64,000 bases of DNA from Shigella phage vB_SboM_Phaginator: sequence record OL615012. The stretch is one strand, 5' to 3'. Below, piece after piece: positions 55,680 to 63,837 of the stretch (its first letter is position 1; every line of letters starts with the position of its first letter). The position numbers and the translations under genes are program-made. The notes beneath the pieces are model-generated. The model ran no database searches. It saw only the letters and a program-made list of their open reading frames with translations, and had not been told where the DNA came from.

Positions 55680-57737
55680 CTACATTTTGAACTTTTTAGA
55701 CATTCCGTTAATGTTAACCAAAGAAGCTAAGATTTGAGAAACTTCGTTTTCCTCTTCTTTTGATTCTTCTACAAGGAATTGATTAAATCCAGTCATTGGA
55801 CGAACTTCACCAGTTTCCATCAAATGGTCGCCATCATATACTGATTCCTCTAATTGTTCAGAAGGAGGAACGATTGTACCTTCGATTAGATACTTGTTAT
55901 AAGCAGTTTCTTTCATAAAGTACGTACTTACTTTATTAATCTTCAGTAAAATTCCACGTGGTAGAATAACTTCAGCTTCTGATGGAAATCCTGATAAATG
56001 ACCTGGAACGATAACTTTGATTCGCTCAGCTCCTTTAATTACCATACCCACGCTAGTTTCAGCATCTTCATTAGCATATGTAGAATGACTACCCATATGC
56101 ATCAAATCTTCTGCATCAACGGAACCTTCTCCTTCACCAGAAAATACTGCGCCGGAATCATCTAGAGCCATATAGTTTTTACCATGCTCACCGAAGATAT
56201 TTGGTTTAAGCGATGTGGATACGAAGTTCTTGAAATAGAACATTTTGTTTTCAATGTTATGACGCAAAGTTTTAAAGGTAACTTCTTGACCACGGTAAAG
56301 TGTAGTTCCTGGAGGAAGAACTGAACCTTTAGCGAATGCAGAATCAAGCGTCTCAATATGTTTAATAGCTCGTTCCATATATTCTTCACGGGTAGAATCT
56401 GGTTTACCCAAAAGGAACGAGTTCATTTCAACATATGAATCTGCGCAATAATCTTCAATTACATCAGATTCAGCTTGAGTTAATCCTTTTGGAGTTACTT
56501 CGGTGCTCGCGTATTCATATGCCTGAGCGGCAGATTCATTAATCAATTTATAAATGCCATTCATGACAAATTGAATAATAGCTGTCTTTTCATCTGGTGT
56601 AGCTTTAGAACCTTTAACTAAATCATTGATAATTTTCTTAATAACATCAAAGCTATTAGAAATATTAATGTCAGCAAGATCGCTTAAAATTTTATCAGTT
56701 TTATAATCAAAGAATTCTTTATTCTTTAAATATTCTTGAGAACCTTGATATGTTATATCGCTCTGCAACTTGATAGATGGATCACGTAAACGCGCATGGG
56801 CTAATGCAATATGATTTCGGAAACTTTCTAGTTCATAATCATTAGATTTAAAACGAGAAGCACTTCTCATACCACCGATAGCTCCTTTGCTGAAGTTTGA
56901 ACCAATCTGAATAACGCCAGAGTTCATTGGTCCTTCTGCTTTATATACCGGAACTTTAGATTCAAACTCTTGATATTTCTTAGCAGCGAAGCTATCACCC
57001 TGAAGTGAAGCATCAACAGTAGAATATTGAGCTTGTGCTGCTAATCGACGACTAATTTTAGTTTTCTGAATAACAGCTTGATCAGTGCGCTTATCATTTT
57101 CTAAAGCAATAGAAGCAGCAACAGCAACAGCTTTAGGAACAGCATTTCCTGTTTTAACGTCTACATAAACATCACCAACCTTTGATTCAACTTTTGTGAA
57201 TAACTCAGTTGAAATAGGAGGTATACCTGGAATGTCTTCTAAATTGGCATTTTTACGGTAAACCATAATATATGCATATTTCTTATCATAGTCCCAGATT
57301 TCCTTTAAAAGAACATACCGACCTGCTCCTTTAGTACGTACTAAACGGTCAGCAATAACTTGCATTTGACGGGCTGCGCCATTTGTTTTACTTTTTAGTA
57401 CGCGGAATAGGCATGCATCAATTTTATACTGTTTCATTGTTTGAAGAGCAGTATCAAAAACAGCATTAATGACGCCAATTGGATTTCCACCCAAGTTTTT
57501 AAGCTTGACTAACGATAATTTCTCGTTGACACCTATCATTACGATATGCATCATTTTGTCGCCCGGCTTAACGTTTTTATTCGTATCGCCGCCAGAGGTG
57601 TATGTACAAAATCTAAATCCAGGAAGCACGCTTTCTTCGCCGACTTGGATAGCAAAAATTTGTGGTATTTTATGCTTAGGATTTAAGTTAACAACCGGCG
57701 CCGAAGCGCCGTCAAATAATTCTGTAATAAGTTCCAT
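55680..57737 (-). CDS. alt: Alt ADP-ribosyltransferase (head-packaged, injected)
   Basis: 685 aa; N-terminus MELITELFDGASAPVVNLNPKHKIPQIF; R-S-E motifs LYRGQ, FVSTSL, EAEVILPRG. Confidence 0.88.
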   Translation of the reverse strand: MELITELFDGASAPVVNLNPKHKIPQIFAIQVGEESVLPGFRFCTYTSGGDTNKNVKPGDKMMHIVMIGVNEKLSLVKLKNLGGNPIGVINAVFDTALQTMKQYKIDACLFRVLKSKTNGAARQMQVIADRLVRTKGAGRYVLLKEIWDYDKKYAYIMVYRKNANLEDIPGIPPISTELFTKVESKVGDVYVDVKTGNAVPKAVAVAASIALENDKRTDQAVIQKTKISRRLAAQAQYSTVDASLQGDSFAAKKYQEFESKVPVYKAEGPMNSGVIQIGSNFSKGAIGGMRSASRFKSNDYELESFRNHIALAHARLRDPSIKLQSDITYQGSQEYLKNKEFFDYKTDKILSDLADINISNSFDVIKKIINDLVKGSKATPDEKTAIIQFVMNGIYKLINESAAQAYEYASTEVTPKGLTQAESDVIEDYCADSYVEMNSFLLGKPDSTREEYMERAIKHIETLDSAFAKGSVLPPGTTLYRGQEVTFKTLRHNIENKMFYFKNFVSTSLKPNIFGEHGKNYMALDDSGAVFSGEGEGSVDAEDLMHMGSHSTYANEDAETSVGMVIKGAERIKVIVPGHLSGFPSEAEVILPRGILLKINKVSTYFMKETAYNKYLIEGTIVPPSEQLEESVYDGDHLMETGEVRPMTGFNQFLVEESKEEENEVSQILASLVNINGMSKKFKM

Positions 57738-57740
57738 GAT

Positions 57741-59834
57741 TTATCCTTGAACGAACTTGTAAGGCATGTTTGTAATATCTATGCAAGACGCAATAATTCC
57801 AAGAGATGATTCTACTTTCTGTTTAACATTTGATGAAACAAATGATGCAAAGTCAACTCTGTCTTCTATTTCAATATCATCTGTCATTGCAACTACTTCG
57901 CCGGTTTCCATTAAATGGTCTCCGTCATAGATTACCGATTCGGTGAGTTCTTCTGTGGTCATAACTTCAGCTTGAATGAGTTTTGTATTATTAGATGTTG
58001 TTCCGTCATTATTAGAAGCATCAGTTATTTTATTAACTTTGACCATCAATCCGCGCGGTAGAATAACTTCAGCTTCTGTTGCTATTCCGAGACTTCCTGG
58101 ATATACAACATTAACTTTATGAGCTCCATCAATTGCCCATCCTATTTGAACTTTAACGTATTCAGGATTTTCTTTATACGCTCTTATTTCGCTTGGATTA
58201 ATAGTTATTCCTTCTTCATTTTTATCAACTGTCAATTCATTACGAGCTTCTGGTTCTAAAAGACCAATACCAGCATGTGTAATTCCAAAACGTCCAAAAA
58301 TGATAGGAGTTAAAGAAGTAGATACAAAATTTCTGAAATAGAACACTTTATTTTTAACTAGTGCTTCGTATATAGGAGCAGTCATACTTTGAGCACGATA
58401 AACTGTGATGCCTTCCGGTATGCGGTCACCATTTTCAAAAGCTGAATCTAAGTTATTTATAGCAGATTCAATTTCTTTTTCACTCATTACATCATATCGT
58501 TCTGGATTGTAACGACCTAAAAGAAGATTATTGATGTCAGTATATCCTGAACCGCAATATTCTCTAATGCCACGCTTTTGTGATGGAGTATATTTAGAAC
58601 CATCACGGGCAATAGTAATATCAATCATTGGACCAGCACCAATTCCAGAAAAACTGTAAATCATTCGTTTGAGGAATTTAGTTTTTGCTGCGTTCCAGGA
58701 ATTTTTAGTTATTTCTTCCCAGACTTCATCTGGTTGTCCTTTACGAGTTTTATTATGTTTATCAAGCCAATTATCTTTATATTCTTCAAAGAATTTATTA
58801 ACAGCTGCTGCGTATTTCTCTAAACATTTTATTGAAGTAGTTGGTTCATTTTTGATTGCGTTAAAAATTACATCTTTAATTTTTTCTGAAACTTCATCAA
58901 CCTCACTTTTTGAAAAGAATTTATAGTCATAGTGAAGTTCATTCGCAGTTCCTTCGGCAATAATTTTTGCTGCCTTAGTTTTAGAAGCTAATGAATTAAT
59001 TCCAAGCTTCATTTCTTCTGCTTCGGGAATTAAAGGAGCGGTAGCAGGTTTATTGAAATTAGCTGCGGTAGATTCATACTTCTGGAATAATTCACTTTCA
59101 AATCTAGAAGATTCCAATGATTGACTTTGTGCAATTGCTCTACGGGAAATTTTAACTTTAACGATTACCGCTTGGTCAGAACGTTTATCATTTTCTTGCG
59201 CAATAGATGCTGCAATTGCCTCATTTTTAGTTACTTGGGCTCCAGTATCTTTATTGATATAAACATCACCGACCTTTGATTCAACTTTAGTAAATAGCTC
59301 GGTACTAATTTCCGGAACTCCTGGAATGTCTTCTAGTGATACATTTTTGCGATGTATAAGAATATATGCATACTTTTTATCGTAATCCCAGAGTTCCTTA
59401 AGAAGGACGTATCTGCCACCTGAACGACTACGGATAAGTCTATCAGCAATAACTTGAATTTGTCGAGCTTGGCCAGCAGTTTTAGACTTAAGAATACGAA
59501 GCATACAAGCATCAATTTTATATTGACGCATAGTTTGCATTGCAACAGTAAAAACTGAATTGATATAATTAATTGGGCTTGGACCAAGACCTTTTAATTT
59601 AGCAATTGAACCTTTAGCAGTTAATGTAAAAGGAACAATATGCATCATTTTATCGCCCATCTTTAAATCGCGATTAGTATCACCTCCAGATGTATAGGTA
59701 CATAAACGAAAGCCTGGTTGTTCAATTGCATCATCAACATGAACTGAAAAAATTTGTGGTATTTTCTTCTTTGGATTTAAGTTTGTAATCGGAAGAGTAG
59801 TATCTTCGTCAAATAATTCTGTAATAAGTTCCAT
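57741..59834 (-). CDS. second Alt-like ADP-ribosyltransferase paralogue
   Basis: 697 aa; N-terminal 230 aa and catalytic core (VYRAQ, FVSTSL, EAEVILPRG) match Alt, central region divergent. Confidence 0.8.
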   Translation of the reverse strand: MELITELFDEDTTLPITNLNPKKKIPQIFSVHVDDAIEQPGFRLCTYTSGGDTNRDLKMGDKMMHIVPFTLTAKGSIAKLKGLGPSPINYINSVFTVAMQTMRQYKIDACMLRILKSKTAGQARQIQVIADRLIRSRSGGRYVLLKELWDYDKKYAYILIHRKNVSLEDIPGVPEISTELFTKVESKVGDVYINKDTGAQVTKNEAIAASIAQENDKRSDQAVIVKVKISRRAIAQSQSLESSRFESELFQKYESTAANFNKPATAPLIPEAEEMKLGINSLASKTKAAKIIAEGTANELHYDYKFFSKSEVDEVSEKIKDVIFNAIKNEPTTSIKCLEKYAAAVNKFFEEYKDNWLDKHNKTRKGQPDEVWEEITKNSWNAAKTKFLKRMIYSFSGIGAGPMIDITIARDGSKYTPSQKRGIREYCGSGYTDINNLLLGRYNPERYDVMSEKEIESAINNLDSAFENGDRIPEGITVYRAQSMTAPIYEALVKNKVFYFRNFVSTSLTPIIFGRFGITHAGIGLLEPEARNELTVDKNEEGITINPSEIRAYKENPEYVKVQIGWAIDGAHKVNVVYPGSLGIATEAEVILPRGLMVKVNKITDASNNDGTTSNNTKLIQAEVMTTEELTESVIYDGDHLMETGEVVAMTDDIEIEDRVDFASFVSSNVKQKVESSLGIIASCIDITNMPYKFVQG

Positions 59835-59865: not shown

Positions 59866-59886
59866 AAATTAAAGGCCCGAAGGCCT

Positions 59887-60075
59887 TTAGTAATCTAGTG
59901 GTAAGAGAGTACGATATATTTCAAACTTTGGTCCTTTTTCATAGGCATCAAATGTTTCTGTAAATTTATTATAAGCGTATGCATCTACAAATTCGAGAAT
60001 GACTTGTGATACAGAAGTAGAAACATCTCCACCTTCTTTTTGAGCAATGACAATTGTTTCTAAGTAAGCTTTCAT
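59887..60075 (-). CDS. hypothetical small protein downstream of DNA ligase
   Basis: 62-aa ORF; start overlaps ligase stop (ATGA). Confidence 0.5.
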   Translation of the reverse strand: MKAYLETIVIAQKEGGDVSTSVSQVILEFVDAYAYNKFTETFDAYEKGPKFEIYRTLLPLDY

Positions 60076-61535
60076 AAACCAGTTACCTCATGAAAATCGC
60101 CAAATACATCTTCAAACGTATTAGCTTTAGTTTTATCTTCACGTAAACGAATCGCAATCGGAAGAAATAATTTAACGTAATCAGTGCGGCCATCAGATTT
60201 TAACCAACCGTTGCATTCGCACTCTAGAATTTTTCCAATATAATAATTTTGGTTTTCCATAATGCGAGTACGGTCAAGTTCATGCGATTTTACACCGGCT
60301 TTATCTTTTAAGCCTGAACCAGCATTTACTTTAATTTTTCCACACTCTGACTCAAGAATAAATCCACCCGCTTTAGTAGGGTCTTTACGGTGAGGATAAA
60401 TTCCTACAATTTTTAAATCAACATCAATTACTTCTTTAAATTTATAAAGATTTTTTGAACGAGCATTTTCCCATAATCCATCGATATTTTTGAGAATAAT
60501 ACCTTCAAGACCTTGGTCAATATACTTTTTGTAAATTACCTTAGCTTCATCTAGGTTATTTACTACTTGGTTTTCAATTAAAATTACTTTATCATAGCCT
60601 GATGTCATTTGTTCTAGTTTAGAAAAACGTACATCATACTTTAAACGAAATGCAGGAAGACCATATATTTCTACTAATGGAACATAGTCCCAGACCTGAA
60701 ACTTCATGCATTGTGCTTCTTTTTCGGAAATGGTTCCCTTTAAAGATTTATTAGCGATTCCATTAGAAGTAGTACGTGATTCAGCTACTTCGGCGAATTC
60801 TTTAGCTTTACTAATTTCAGGATAAGCATCAAAAAGAAAATCTAGGCCTTCTGGCTCCTTTTCAACTTGCTCGTGGTATACCAATTCGCCATCAATTAAC
60901 ACACCTTCTGGATGAATCTGGCGGGCTTCAGCGGTCATTTTGATTAACTCTTCCTTAAGAAGATCTAATCCTAGGTATTCATTACCAGCTCGTGATAAAA
61001 GACGAACATCATCTAATTCATCACCTCTGACTTCGGCAAAGCACCGAGCTCCATCAGCCTTTAACTGGGCAAAAGCTGGAAATTTGATATTCTTATTAAT
61101 GCCTTTTTCATCATAAGAACTTGCCAGCATTTGAGGTTGTTCAGGAATTAAACCTGGCCAAACTTTGTTTGCAATAGATATTGAAGCACCGCATTCAAGG
61201 TCTCGCATCATCACTCGACGCAAAACTTCAACATCATCCTTTTTACCATCGGTGATATATCCAGTCAATTCCTCAATTGCAGCATTTCCGGTCAATTTCC
61301 GAGTAGCTAACGTGAATTCAATGAAGTCAAGCATATCGGTAATAGTCAGCATTCCAAAACTCTGGGTAGCAATACCAGGTTTAGGCCATTTCTTGATATA
61401 ATACTGCAACCCACGAGAATAAGTCAGACGATATACTCGTTTAAGCAATTCATTATCTTTATTCTTTTCAAGAATTGCTTGCTTCTGCTTAGTTGAACCA
61501 ATAGATGCTATTTCGTTCAGAATTTTAAGAATCAT
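60072..61535 (-). CDS. 30: ATP-dependent DNA ligase (gp30)
   Basis: 487 aa; adenylation lysine motif KADGAR; N-terminus MILKILNEIASIGSTKQKQAILEKNKDNELLKRVYRLTYSRGLQYY as T4 ligase. Confidence 0.95.
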   Translation of the reverse strand: MILKILNEIASIGSTKQKQAILEKNKDNELLKRVYRLTYSRGLQYYIKKWPKPGIATQSFGMLTITDMLDFIEFTLATRKLTGNAAIEELTGYITDGKKDDVEVLRRVMMRDLECGASISIANKVWPGLIPEQPQMLASSYDEKGINKNIKFPAFAQLKADGARCFAEVRGDELDDVRLLSRAGNEYLGLDLLKEELIKMTAEARQIHPEGVLIDGELVYHEQVEKEPEGLDFLFDAYPEISKAKEFAEVAESRTTSNGIANKSLKGTISEKEAQCMKFQVWDYVPLVEIYGLPAFRLKYDVRFSKLEQMTSGYDKVILIENQVVNNLDEAKVIYKKYIDQGLEGIILKNIDGLWENARSKNLYKFKEVIDVDLKIVGIYPHRKDPTKAGGFILESECGKIKVNAGSGLKDKAGVKSHELDRTRIMENQNYYIGKILECECNGWLKSDGRTDYVKLFLPIAIRLREDKTKANTFEDVFGDFHEVTGL

Positions 61536-61801
61536 TGTTCATCCTTTAGAGTTTGGTTTACAGCTCTATTATAAATCAATTCATCATTAAGCTCAGGCAA
61601 AGACTTATGATATGTAGTTCTAACTTTATTTCCTTGCATCCAGTGCTTGACGTAAATGAAACCTTGCTCTACACATTTTTTAAAAATTCGTTCGTCTTTT
61701 TGAGCTCGGAATTCTGGATTGCATCTAAAAAATTGATTTACGTGACCGTAATCACGTGTAGTATTACCTTCATTTTCATAAATAGTATGAACAACAAACA
61801 T
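61532..61801 (-). CDS. hypothetical protein (T4 30.1-like position)
   Basis: 89-aa ORF, ATGA overlap with ligase start. Confidence 0.55.
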   Translation of the reverse strand: MFVVHTIYENEGNTTRDYGHVNQFFRCNPEFRAQKDERIFKKCVEQGFIYVKHWMQGNKVRTTYHKSLPELNDELIYNRAVNQTLKDEQ

Positions 61802-62661
61802 TAGAATGCTCCTTGGAAAATATTATCACCACTACCACTAGTAAGTCTATTAAAATACCCTGCATCGCCAGGCTTAATATAACTCCATGTATGGAATGGA
61901 TGGAATGGATTCTGATATGAGTGTGTATAATATGGATGATATGGATTATAAGGATTAAATCCAGGAGTTCTCCAAGTAGTGTTCCAACGAAAAGAATCGT
62001 TTTTAATCATCTTTTCAACTACATCTTTTATAGCTTTTTCACTATCAAAACTTTCTTTATTTTCCTTCGATGGAAAAAGCTTATTCTCTACATCATTCCA
62101 TGTATAAACTCGCTGTGCAGTTTTTGGAATACTGTCACGTTCCCCTCGAGCCATCCAATAAACAGGCACATTTAATATTTCACTCGCGTGATCGCAGTGG
62201 TGAGCGAGATCGTCAATATAACAAATTACGTTATATTTCTCTTTTGCCTTTTTGAACAACTCTTCTTTTGAAGAATCATGACCACACATCAATACTTCTG
62301 AGAAGGCACCAGGAAAAAGAGCATTCAAATTAAATTGACGATTCAGCAGAGCGTCAATAGAATCACCCAATGCTGTAACAGCTACAAAATTATAATCTTC
62401 TTTTAATTTGTTAATTACACACAGGGCATCTTTATATGGAGACAAGTAACGAATAAAATCTGAACGATTGTATTTTTCAATTAACTTGACGCCAAGTTCT
62501 TCATCACAATTAAAGAGTTTACCAGGAGAAATAAATTTCTCATCTTGGATCATTTTTAAAATATGTTCTAACGGAAGATTATATTTTTGGGCAAAATAAG
62601 GAAGACCTGATTGCCAGCTTAAACATACACCATCAATATCAGTCAAAATAGTAGGCTTCAT
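61801..62661 (-). CDS. HAD-like hydrolase-fold protein (T4 30.2-like position) with Pro/Tyr/His-rich C-tail
   Basis: 286 aa; N-terminal LTDIDGV resembles HAD motif I (DxDGT/V); C-terminal NPYNPYHPYYTHSYQNPFHPFH low-complexity tail. Confidence 0.55.
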   Translation of the reverse strand: MKPTILTDIDGVCLSWQSGLPYFAQKYNLPLEHILKMIQDEKFISPGKLFNCDEELGVKLIEKYNRSDFIRYLSPYKDALCVINKLKEDYNFVAVTALGDSIDALLNRQFNLNALFPGAFSEVLMCGHDSSKEELFKKAKEKYNVICYIDDLAHHCDHASEILNVPVYWMARGERDSIPKTAQRVYTWNDVENKLFPSKENKESFDSEKAIKDVVEKMIKNDSFRWNTTWRTPGFNPYNPYHPYYTHSYQNPFHPFHTWSYIKPGDAGYFNRLTSGSGDNIFQGAF

Positions 62662-63116
62662 AGAGAGTCTCTTAATAGGTTTAACACATCAATAAATTCA
62701 GCTTCGGTTAGTATTGTATCATCTTTTGTTAGACCACTAGCCATGCTGTGCTTCAAAACTTTTCCTTTCGAGGCTTGTAATGCATCACGAAAGCCCTTGT
62801 TTTGGATCGCTGTTTCAAAATATGCATTTGTGTATAATTCTTTCCACGCCGGGGAGTATCTTGAAAACGGAACTCCGAGCCAGAAGAGGGTCCCACGGTC
62901 CTGAGCTCTAGCATAAGACCTTCCAGCTTGTTGGGCGGCAAGCCCGGATAACCCAAATACACGACGTTGTTGTTCAACATTTTTCACCTTGCACCCTTGG
63001 AGGAATCCTTCAAGACCTCCAAATTGAATACCATCCATAACGAAAGGCCATTGGGCGAAATTACTTAATGCACATGATGGCCACCTAAAATTGCTTCTAA
63101 TCTCTAACTCAGACAT
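62658..63116 (-). CDS. NADAR (YbiA-like) domain protein (T4 30.3-like position)
   Basis: Track frame starts TTG 63122; ATG at 63116; motif LSNFAQWPFVMDGIQFGGLEGFLQ resembles the NADAR/YbiA signature. Confidence 0.6.
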   Translation of the reverse strand: MSELEIRSNFRWPSCALSNFAQWPFVMDGIQFGGLEGFLQGCKVKNVEQQRRVFGLSGLAAQQAGRSYARAQDRGTLFWLGVPFSRYSPAWKELYTNAYFETAIQNKGFRDALQASKGKVLKHSMASGLTKDDTILTEAEFIDVLNLLRDSL

Positions 63117-63796: not shown

Positions 63797-63813
63797 AATA
63801 TTTTCCTCAGTAA

Positions 63814-63827
63814 GGGGCCGAAGCCCC
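63814..63827. other. GC stem-loop GGGGCCGAAGCCCC (intergenic hairpin)
   Basis: Third copy of the identical 14-mer hairpin; followed on plus strand by TCATTTATTTTT. Confidence 0.4.
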
Positions 63828-63837
63828 TCATTTATTT

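What the first reader, a model, noticed from the sequence alone, without database searches (positions are those of the whole stretch)
61801..63116. NADAR-domain protein next to a HAD-like protein with an unusual aromatic/Pro/His-rich tail
The ORF at 62658-63116 contains LSNFAQWPFVMDGIQFGGLEGFLQ, resembling the YbiA/NADAR signature; NADAR proteins have been reported to reverse DarT-type ADP-ribosylation of DNA bases. The adjacent 286-aa ORF begins LTDIDGV (HAD motif I-like) and ends in a low-complexity NPYNPYHPYYTHSYQNPFHPFH segment that I do not recognise from any family. The pairing suggests a nucleotide or ADP-ribose processing module downstream of ligase.
Basis: partly seen in the sequence, partly recalled or inferred. 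Interest (0 to 1): 0.45.

Follow-up and report, generated by a model that had tools for sequence, protein, structure and literature searches.

The report
T4 AdfN NADAR plus HAD nucleotidase-like neighbour
These are phage T4 genes 30.3 and 30.2: the first is the already characterised AdfN enzyme that strips defensive ADP-ribose off phage DNA, and the second is an uncharacterised HAD-family phosphatase, most like 5'-nucleotidases, carrying a fast-evolving disordered aromatic/proline-rich tail.

Summary
The window is a Tequatrovirus (T4-like) phage, and both ORFs lie on the minus strand.

**gp30.3 (62658-63116):** It is 98% identical to T4 gp30.3 and scores 232 bits on Pfam PF08010. Its model matches only YbiA and two NADAR structures. 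It keeps E36, K43, H123 and the full C-terminal helix. T4 gp30.3 is published as AdfN, a NADAR DNA ADP-ribosylglycohydrolase that counters DarTG1, so this half is already known.

**gp30.2 (61801-62661):** It is 91% identical to T4 gp30.2, for which I found no functional study.
- All four HAD motifs are conserved: D8/D10, T96, K132 and D150/D151.
- Distant relatives link it to Pfam NT5C and to 5'(3')-deoxyribonucleotidase structures, although the window protein itself has no Pfam hit.

**The tail (residues 225-286):** It is real and not a frameshift. It differs from T4 only by in-frame indels and shares the same C-terminus. It is predicted disordered, absent from about 70% of family representatives and hypervariable, yet often carries a short C-proximal motif.

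**The pairing:** The two genes are adjacent in only about half of the related loci. A functional NADAR-HAD module is therefore unproven.

Interest is low to moderate.

The parts
62658..63116 (-). Gene 30.3 = adfN. NADAR-superfamily DNA ADP-ribosylglycohydrolase, 152 aa. Catalytic E36 and K43, phage-type H123 and an intact C-terminal helix are all present.
   Evidence: PF08010 at E=1.8e-69, 232 bits against a cut-off of 36. 98% identical to T4 gp30.3 over all 152 aa. E36 and H123 are invariant and K43 is at least 90% conserved in 54 homologues. AF2 pLDDT is 94. The only Foldseek PDB hits with probability above 0.06 are YbiA 2b3w, 8bau and 8bat. Function of the T4 protein is published.
61801..62661 (-). 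Gene 30.2. 286-aa HAD-superfamily phosphatase-like protein consisting of core, linker helix and disordered tail, plus the stop codon.
   Evidence: 91% identical to T4 gp30.2. phrog_420 at E=1.3e-90. No Pfam hit for the protein itself.
62074..62661 (-). gp30.2 HAD core with a helical C1-type cap (residues 1-196). Motif I is D8-x-D10, motif II T96, motif III K132, motif IV D150-D151.
61990..62073 (-). gp30.2 charged linker (residues 197-224) containing a predicted helix at 207-220.
   Evidence: AF2 secondary structure, with pLDDT about 89 for residues 211-220. Sequence read directly.
61804..61989 (-). gp30.2 aromatic/Pro/His/Asn-rich tail (residues 225-286). Predicted disordered and variable in length between alleles. 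It carries a diverged copy (GYFNRLT) of the C-proximal motif that reads IEYLYNRPT in T4.
   Evidence: pLDDT averages 51 for residues 231-240 and falls below 50 from residue 240 to the end, apart from 252-255. Composition. In-frame indels only. omega is 0.1-0.46. Motif survey across the family.
62658..62661 (-). ATGA overlap between the 30.3 stop codon and the 30.2 start codon.
   Evidence: Coordinates and sequence. Similar overlaps join 30.4/30.3, 30.2/30.1 and 30.1/30, so this is a property of the whole block.
61532..61801 (-). Context: gene 30.1 (DUF3045), immediately after 30.2.
   Evidence: PF11243 at E=5.6e-63.
60072..61535 (-). Context: gene 30, ATP-dependent DNA ligase.
   Evidence: PF01068 at E=1.6e-32. 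Synteny with T4.

Best explanation
These are two separate enzymes sitting next to each other in the conserved early-gene block 30.6...30 of a T4-like phage.

(1) gp30.3 is AdfN, a stand-alone NADAR enzyme. It hydrolyses the N-glycosidic bond between guanine and ADP-ribose that the host DarT1 toxin places on phage DNA, and so restores replication in DarTG1 hosts. This is shown for the 98%-identical T4 protein and inferred here by identity and conserved catalytic residues.

(2) gp30.2 is a Mg2+-dependent HAD phosphatase with a helical cap. D8 would be the nucleophile and D10 the acid/base. It belongs to a large, mostly phage or metagenomic family that grades into NT5C-type 5'(3')-deoxyribonucleotidases. 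The fold and catalytic motifs are shown here. Its most likely activity is dephosphorylation of a nucleoside monophosphate or a similar small phospho-ester during infection. That activity is inferred, and the substrate is unknown.

(3) The gp30.2 C-terminal tail of about 60 residues is an intrinsically disordered, rapidly evolving, optional appendage. It probably acts as a docking or regulatory peptide through a short C-proximal motif. This is inference only.

(4) The adjacency reflects shared ancestry of gene order in the T4 family (Straboviridae) rather than an obligate NADAR-HAD module.
For: **gp30.3**
- PF08010 at 232 bits and 98% identity to T4 gp30.3.
- Invariant E36 and H123, and K43 at least 90% conserved.
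- 22 of 54 homologues also hit PF08719, best E 1.5e-7.
- The model has pLDDT 94. Its only PDB matches with probability above 0.06 are YbiA (E 7.5e-5, TM 0.68), Phytophthora NADAR and Geobacter NADAR.
- Genetics and biochemistry of T4 AdfN are published.

**gp30.2 core**
- D8, D10 and K132 are invariant; T96, D150 and D151 are at least 90% conserved in 59 homologues.
- 13 of 59 close homologues weakly hit NT5C. 35 of 89 distant family members hit NT5C, best E 4.2e-10, and some exceed the gathering score.
- The profile of those distant members matches 3bwv full length at E 1.7e-6, followed by other nucleotide phosphatases.
- In the HMMER alignment to mouse cdN, W16, F43 and Y64 pair with F20, F46 and Y67.
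- Core omega is 0.01-0.05.

**Tail**
- pLDDT is mostly below 50; only in-frame indels separate alleles; omega is 0.1-0.46.
- 155 of 222 family representatives lack a tail, and 22 of 61 long tails carry the motif against 0.3 expected from shuffles.

**Independence of the two genes**
- They are adjacent in about 37 of 78 loci.
- There is no HAD next to NADARs outside T4-like phages.
Against: - No enzymatic data exist for gp30.2.
- The window protein itself has no Pfam hit at E<=0.1 when scanned alone and none for any HAD-type family at E<=1; its best direct PDB sequence hit is only E=1.1, or E=0.057 with the profile.
- Both genes are present in nearly the same set of about 1,450-1,510 phage records, and where adjacent they are always co-oriented with 30.3 first. 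A functional link cannot be excluded.
- The AdfN paper itself leaves open that 'another factor' from T-even phages is needed for full activity.
- The tail motif was defined after looking at the data, so its shuffle statistic is optimistic.
Confidence: 0.75

Rival explanations
1. gp30.2 and AdfN form a functional module. gp30.2 would be the unidentified T-even factor that lets AdfN work in vivo, for example by processing the released ADP-ribose or its breakdown products (ribose-5-phosphate, AMP), or by recruiting AdfN through its tail.
For: The 30.3 stop and 30.2 start overlap as ATGA. Where the two are close, 30.3 is always upstream on the same strand. Both genes occur in almost the same set of phage genomes. 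The AdfN paper reports that AdfN does not rescue DarT1 toxicity without infection, gives little or no rescue to T5 and Bas25, and explicitly leaves 'another factor' open.
Against: The genes are adjacent in only about half of related loci and are tens of kb apart in some Klebsiella phages. NADARs of the same family outside T4-like phages lack this neighbour. Overlapping stops and starts are general in this block. Purified AdfN alone is active in vitro, and the authors favour hydroxymethylcytosine DNA as the explanation. An NT5C-like monoesterase has no obvious substrate in the NADAR reaction itself.
Confidence: 0.1
2. gp30.2 is an anti-defence enzyme in its own right. It would dephosphorylate a host-made toxic or signalling nucleotide, such as a chain-terminating or modified nucleoside monophosphate. 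The fast-evolving tail would reflect an arms race with a host protein.
For: It lies in an early-gene block rich in host-manipulation functions, including two Alt ADP-ribosyltransferases and AdfN. The tail evolves about ten times faster than the core at non-synonymous sites and differs by indels between close relatives. The family is large and largely phage or metagenomic.
Against: Tail omega stays below 1 (0.1-0.46), so positive selection is not shown. About 70% of family representatives have no tail. No defence system is known to me whose product is a phosphomonoester removed by a HAD enzyme. I found no published phenotype for gene 30.2.
Confidence: 0.12
3. gp30.2 is a nucleic-acid end phosphatase that prepares nicks or ends for the DNA ligase encoded two genes downstream.
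Against: gp30.2 has a helical cap of about 80 residues inserted after motif I (helices 16-86). From general knowledge of HAD enzymes, such a cap is typical of small-molecule substrates. The PNK phosphatase aligns over only 125-128 core residues and ranks below 50 other HAD enzymes. T4-like phages already carry pseT. Sequence bridging leads to nucleotidases, not to PNK.
Confidence: 0.04
4. The aromatic/Pro/His tail is a sequencing or frameshift artefact, or untranslated junk appended to a protein of about 200 aa.
For: Many homologues end near residue 200. The tail has low complexity and low pLDDT.
Against: 494 phage records cover at least 80% of a 2-kb query spanning 30.1 to 30.4. All seven Tequatrovirus alleles compared keep one frame through indels of 3, 6 and 21 nt and end in the same GDNIFQGAF-stop, which abuts the 30.1 start. 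omega is below 1. A C-proximal motif recurs in otherwise unalignable tails.
Confidence: 0.02

Closest known systems
T4 AdfN (gp30.3), anti-DarT factor NADAR (Johannesman et al., bioRxiv 10.1101/2024.07.11.602962 / PMC11825919; in vitro work in PMC11125620)
   Same: 149 of 152 residues are identical, with the same length and the same genomic position. E36, K43 and H123 are present, and so is the C-terminal helix whose loss inactivates the RB69 allele.
   Different: Three substitutions only (V53I, T102A, M125I, written window to T4). Nothing suggests a functional difference.
DarG1 / DarT1-associated NADAR antitoxins (Geobacter lovleyi 8bat) and E. coli YbiA (2b3w)
   Same: Same YbiA/NADAR fold and the same Glu and Lys catalytic pair. 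According to the cited papers, DarG1 shares the guanine-ADP-ribose glycohydrolase chemistry.
   Different: Sequence identity is about 15-17%. The window protein does not hit PF08719 directly. It has His in place of the Asp (DarT-linked) or Glu (YbiA) in the last strand (PMC11125620). It lacks the N-terminal extension and has no adjacent DarT toxin, so it is an orphan.
NT5C family (PF06941): mammalian cytosolic and mitochondrial 5'(3')-deoxyribonucleotidases (2jao, 2i7d, 1q92) and the bacterial homologue 3bwv
   Same: Capped HAD fold with DxD, T, K and DD motifs. These give the best target-normalised TM-scores (0.65-0.70) and the best PDB sequence and profile hits. Distant gp30.2-family members pass the NT5C gathering score. 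The aromatic residues W16, F43 and Y64 align with cdN F20, F46 and Y67.
Phage T5 Dmp, deoxynucleoside-5'-monophosphatase
   Same: A phage early protein annotated as dephosphorylating dNMPs. It has a DLDGT sequence resembling HAD motif I. It is the clearest precedent for a phage-encoded dNMP phosphatase.
   Different: There is no detectable homology beyond motif I: hhalign probability is 2% and Dmp has no Pfam hit. The biological logic also differs. From my own knowledge, T5 discards host nucleotides whereas T4 reuses them.

Membership tests
Phage gp30.3 / AdfN family (PF08010) | Full-length match to the family profile above the curated cut-off | tested here: met
   232.3 bits against a cut-off of 36, covering profile positions 1-138 of 138.
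Phage gp30.3 / AdfN family (PF08010) | Intact C-terminal helix (the RB69 allele lacking the last 15 residues is inactive) | tested here: met
   Aligns end to end with T4 gp30.3 over 152 of 152 residues. The model has a helix at 138-151.
NADAR superfamily | YbiA-type alpha+beta fold | tested here: met
   The AF2 model has pLDDT 94. The top three Foldseek PDB hits are YbiA 2b3w (E 7.5e-5, TM 0.68), 8bau and 8bat; all other hits have probability of 0.06 or less.
NADAR superfamily | Sequence-profile relationship to PF08719 | tested here: inconclusive
   The window protein gives no PF08719 hit at E<=1. 22 of 54 homologues do, best E 1.5e-7, so the link is transitive only.
NADAR superfamily | [quoted passage not shown] | tested here: met
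   E36 and H123 are invariant and K43 is at least 90% conserved.
NADAR superfamily | Hydrolysis of guanine-linked ADP-ribose on DNA | not testable with these tools
   Published for the 98%-identical T4 protein.
HAD superfamily | Motif I DxDx(T/V), with the nucleophile and the +2 acid/base Asp | tested here: met
   D8-I-D10-G-V. D8 and D10 are invariant in 59 close homologues and in 89 distant ones.
HAD superfamily | Motif II Ser/Thr, motif III Lys, motif IV DD | tested here: met
   T96 is at least 90% conserved, K132 is invariant, and D150 and D151 are at least 90% conserved and invariant in the core set.
HAD superfamily | Rossmann-like core fold with a cap inserted after motif I | tested here: met
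HAD superfamily | Mg2+-dependent phosphoryl transfer | not testable with these tools
NT5C 5'(3')-deoxyribonucleotidase family (PF06941) | Match to PF06941 above the gathering score | tested here: inconclusive
   The window protein has no hit. 13 of 59 close homologues give weak hits, best E 1.2e-4. 35 of 89 distant members hit at E<=1e-3, and P0340 (37.3 bits) and P0320 (29.0 bits) exceed the cut-off of 24.8.
NT5C 5'(3')-deoxyribonucleotidase family (PF06941) | Closest solved structures are NT5C enzymes | tested here: inconclusive
NT5C 5'(3')-deoxyribonucleotidase family (PF06941) | Aromatic residues in the cap that hold the nucleoside | tested here: inconclusive
   W16 and Y64 (both invariant) and F43 (at least 90% conserved) align with F20, F46 and Y67 of mouse cdN. 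The roles of these cdN residues are recalled from memory, and I could not find a readable source.
NT5C 5'(3')-deoxyribonucleotidase family (PF06941) | dNMP or NMP phosphatase activity | not testable with these tools
   I found no published assay of gp30.2.

The most novel reading that the evidence does not exclude
gp30.2 is the missing T-even factor that makes AdfN effective only during infection, or more broadly an anti-defence nucleotidase. In this reading its hypervariable disordered tail, through the conserved C-proximal (I/L)(E/R/K)(Y/A)xx motif, docks the enzyme to a phage or host hub. The NADAR-HAD pair would then be a two-enzyme counter-defence unit, and the tail a new kind of phage short linear docking motif.
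Probability: 0.08. Interest if true: 0.55.

Novelty: already known. Interest (0 to 1): 0.25.

Why it matters
The headline element, a phage NADAR that reverses DarT-type DNA ADP-ribosylation, is correct. It was published in 2023-2025 for the 98%-identical T4 protein, so this window adds nothing new there.

What remains open is gene 30.2. It is present in about 1,450 sequenced phages, and its catalytic core is under strong purifying selection. I found no literature on it. I show that it is a catalytically intact HAD phosphatase that grades into the 5'-nucleotidase family, and that it carries an optional, fast-evolving disordered tail with a recurrent terminal motif.

Its substrate matters for two reasons. 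T4 recycles host nucleotides, so a nucleotidase seems counter-intuitive there. It is also the obvious untested candidate for the 'other factor' that the AdfN authors left open.

Tried and rejected
- **Direct assignment of gp30.2.** Direct Pfam and NCBIfam scans gave nothing useful. Single-sequence PDB searches gave only E of about 1. Progress came from family alignments and an exhaustive profile search.
- **Literature on gene 30.2.** Searches for gp30.2, NP_049815, T4p204, phrog_420 and the 30.1/30.2/30.3 combination found nothing relevant.
- **T5 Dmp as a homologue.** I had recalled T5 Dmp as an NT5C-family homologue. Tested and rejected: it has no Pfam hit and hhalign probability is 2%. It is kept only as a functional analogue.
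- **Frameshift origin of the tail.** Rejected by the codon-level alignment.
- **Positive selection on the tail.** Not shown: omega is 0.1-0.46, based on small counts.
- **Tail presence tracking NADAR adjacency.** It does not. Long and short forms both occur with and without a nearby 30.3.
- **Domain fusions as functional clues.** Pfam found nothing in the extra regions of P0206, P0245, P0260, P0333 and P0084. Reading by eye suggests ParB-like and nucleotidyltransferase-like segments, which I did not verify.
- **Context of distant family members.** Uninformative.
- **Promoter and terminator scan.** Inside the block the counts were at chance level.
- **Source for the cdN aromatic residues.** No readable paper was found.
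Full report
**What is there.** The region 59.8-64 kb of the window is a tightly packed block of minus-strand genes. The 2-kb stretch around the finding is 97-98.6% identical in DNA to many Tequatrovirus (T4-like) phages. The block is collinear with T4 genes alt, alt.1, 30 (DNA ligase), 30.1, 30.2, 30.3, 30.4, 30.5 and 30.6. The two ORFs in the finding are gene 30.3 (62658-63116, 152 aa from the ATG that T4 annotates) and gene 30.2 (61801-62661, 286 aa). In the direction of transcription the pair lies upstream of ligase, not downstream.

**gp30.3.**
- It matches Pfam PF08010 (Phage_30_3) end to end at 232 bits, against a cut-off of 36.
- It is 149/152 identical to T4 gp30.3.
- It does not hit the NADAR model PF08719 directly, but 22 of 54 aligned homologues do, best E 1.5e-7.
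- An AlphaFold2 model (pLDDT 94) finds only three PDB matches with probability above 0.06: E. coli YbiA, Phytophthora NADAR with ADP-ribose, and Geobacter lovleyi NADAR.
- E36 and H123 are invariant and K43 nearly so.

The literature settles the function. T4 gp30.3 was listed among phage NADARs and shown in vitro to remove ADP-ribose from guanine in DNA (PMC11125620). It was then named AdfN and shown genetically to be necessary and sufficient for T-even phages to escape DarTG1. E36A and K43A abolish its activity, and the RB69 allele that lacks the last 15 residues is inactive (bioRxiv 10.1101/2024.07.11.602962). The window protein has all of these features.

**gp30.2 core.** The protein is 91% identical to T4 gp30.2, which is annotated as hypothetical. 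It belongs to phrog_420, of unknown function. I found no paper that discusses it. It has no Pfam hit of its own. The evidence for a HAD phosphatase is as follows.
- In an alignment of 59 homologues the four HAD motifs stand out. D8 and D10 are invariant (motif I, DxD, the signature of phosphotransferases rather than dehalogenases). T96 is motif II, invariant K132 is motif III, and D150-D151 is motif IV.
- AlphaFold2 models residues 1-196 with pLDDT above 92 as a Rossmann-like core, with a helical cap inserted after motif I.
- Foldseek gives 105 PDB matches at E<=1e-3, and the 50 listed are all HAD-superfamily entries or designs derived from them. The best target-normalised TM-scores (0.65-0.70) go to 5'(3')-deoxyribonucleotidases 2jao, 3bwv and 4yih.

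The subfamily call therefore rests on sequence bridging.
- 13 of 59 close homologues weakly hit PF06941 NT5C.
- An exhaustive profile search finds 1,451 representative clusters in the family.
- Among 89 distant members, 35 hit NT5C, best E 4.2e-10, and some exceed the gathering score.
- The profile of those members matches the putative deoxyribonucleotidase 3bwv over its full length at E 1.7e-6. Pyrimidine nucleotidase SSM1/SDT1, XMP phosphatase and mitochondrial deoxyribonucleotidase follow.
- In the HMMER alignment to mouse cdN, W16, F43 and Y64 pair with F20, F46 and Y67. I recall these as nucleoside-contacting residues but could not verify that.

The core is under strong purifying selection, with omega 0.01-0.05. 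I conclude that gp30.2 is a catalytically intact, capped HAD phosphatase and most probably a nucleotidase-like enzyme. The substrate is not established.

**The tail.** Residues 197-224 form a charged linker with one predicted helix. Residues 225-286 are predicted disordered, with pLDDT mostly below 50.
- The composition is P 11%, Y 11%, F 10%, N 10%, T 10%, G 10%, H 6.5% and W 5%. There are almost no aliphatic residues and few charged ones. No other long ORF in the window comes close.
- It is not a frameshift artefact. Seven Tequatrovirus alleles differ only by in-frame indels and substitutions, and all end in GDNIFQGAF-stop.
- There are two allele types in this genus. The T4 type reads ...HPYQTHPFQTW...GGIEYLYNRPT... 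The window type has an inserted YTHSYQN(PF) and reads ...GDAGYFNRLTSGSG...
- Tail omega is 0.1-0.46. Constraint is relaxed but still purifying; the counts are small.
- Across the family, 155 of 222 representatives stop within 20 residues of the core, and 61 have tails of at least 35 residues. The long tails are enriched in P, W and T and cannot be aligned with each other. Even so, 22 of 61 carry a C-proximal motif (GIEYLNxQPT, DLRAYY or SLRATF). Shuffles give 0.3 on average, but the motif was defined post hoc.

The pattern fits an optional disordered appendage carrying a short linear motif. Its partner is unknown.

**Is it a module?** Several observations favour a link.
- The 30.3 stop and 30.2 start overlap as ATGA.
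- 30.3 is always upstream and co-oriented when the two are close.
- The two genes occur in almost the same phage genomes: 1,510 and 1,455 records, with near-identical counts by host genus.
- The AdfN authors note that AdfN fails outside T-even infection. They leave open 'another factor', although they favour hydroxymethylated DNA as the cause.

Other observations argue against one.
- The genes are within 6 kb in only about 37 of 78 related loci, and are tens of kb apart in some Klebsiella phages.
- Same-family NADARs in non-T4 phages have no such neighbour.
- Overlapping stops and starts are the rule throughout this block.
- AdfN alone is active in vitro.
- Tail presence does not track NADAR adjacency.

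I rate a functional module at about 10%.

**Verdict.** The NADAR half is already known. The HAD half is an uncharacterised member of a known enzyme class with an odd, real tail. Overall interest is low to moderate.

Noticed in passing
window 55680-57737 (-) and 57741-59834 (-): Two tandem Alt-like ADP-ribosyltransferase paralogues of 685 and 697 aa, 41% identical. T4 itself has one alt gene, and the close relative PhiZZ23 also has two. Together with AdfN, this end of the window is rich in ADP-ribosylation enzymes.
   Followed up: partly
window 62753-62980 (-): A 75-aa ORF in a different frame inside gene 30.3. It corresponds to T4 30.3', which is annotated as an internal out-of-frame translation product. 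I did not test whether it is conserved as a coding sequence.
   Followed up: no
window 63813-63828 and 59870-59889: GC-rich tetraloop hairpins (AGGGGC-CGAA-GCCCCT and AAAGGCC-TTCG-GGCCTTT) bracket the block 30.6...alt.1. The overall count of terminator-like sites is at chance level.
   Followed up: no
protein clusters P0104-P0107, P0113, P0116-P0118, P0121, P0147, P0194: Many truncated gp30.3 products of 83-126 aa occur in T4-like phages. Some carry Pfam hits from neighbouring genes, which suggests recurrent disruption or fusion of adfN, like the RB69 frameshift. In phage UGJNEcP4 a 91-aa gp30.3 sits next to a tailless 212-aa gp30.2 (P0117 and P0009).
   Followed up: no
proteins P0014, P0245, P0260, P0206: Fusions in the gp30.2 family. 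P0014 joins 30.2 to 30.1 (DUF3045). P0245 has a C-terminal stretch with an NGRHRT motif that looks ParB-like. P0260 has an N-terminal part with a GDLDIII motif that looks nucleotidyltransferase-like. P0206 ends in the NLRATF tail motif. The extra regions were read by eye only, and Pfam found nothing in those scanned (P0206, P0245, P0260).
   Followed up: partly
L089 124-858 (-) (phage T5 dmp): T5 deoxynucleoside-5'-monophosphatase has a DLDGT sequence resembling HAD motif I. It matches no Pfam family and is not detectably related to gp30.2.
   Followed up: yes
PMC11125620, methods: The Toxins paper lists its T4 gp30.3 construct as 'residues 1-208', whereas the T4 and window proteins are 152 aa. 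The discrepancy is unexplained; it could be tag numbering or a different gene model.
   Followed up: no
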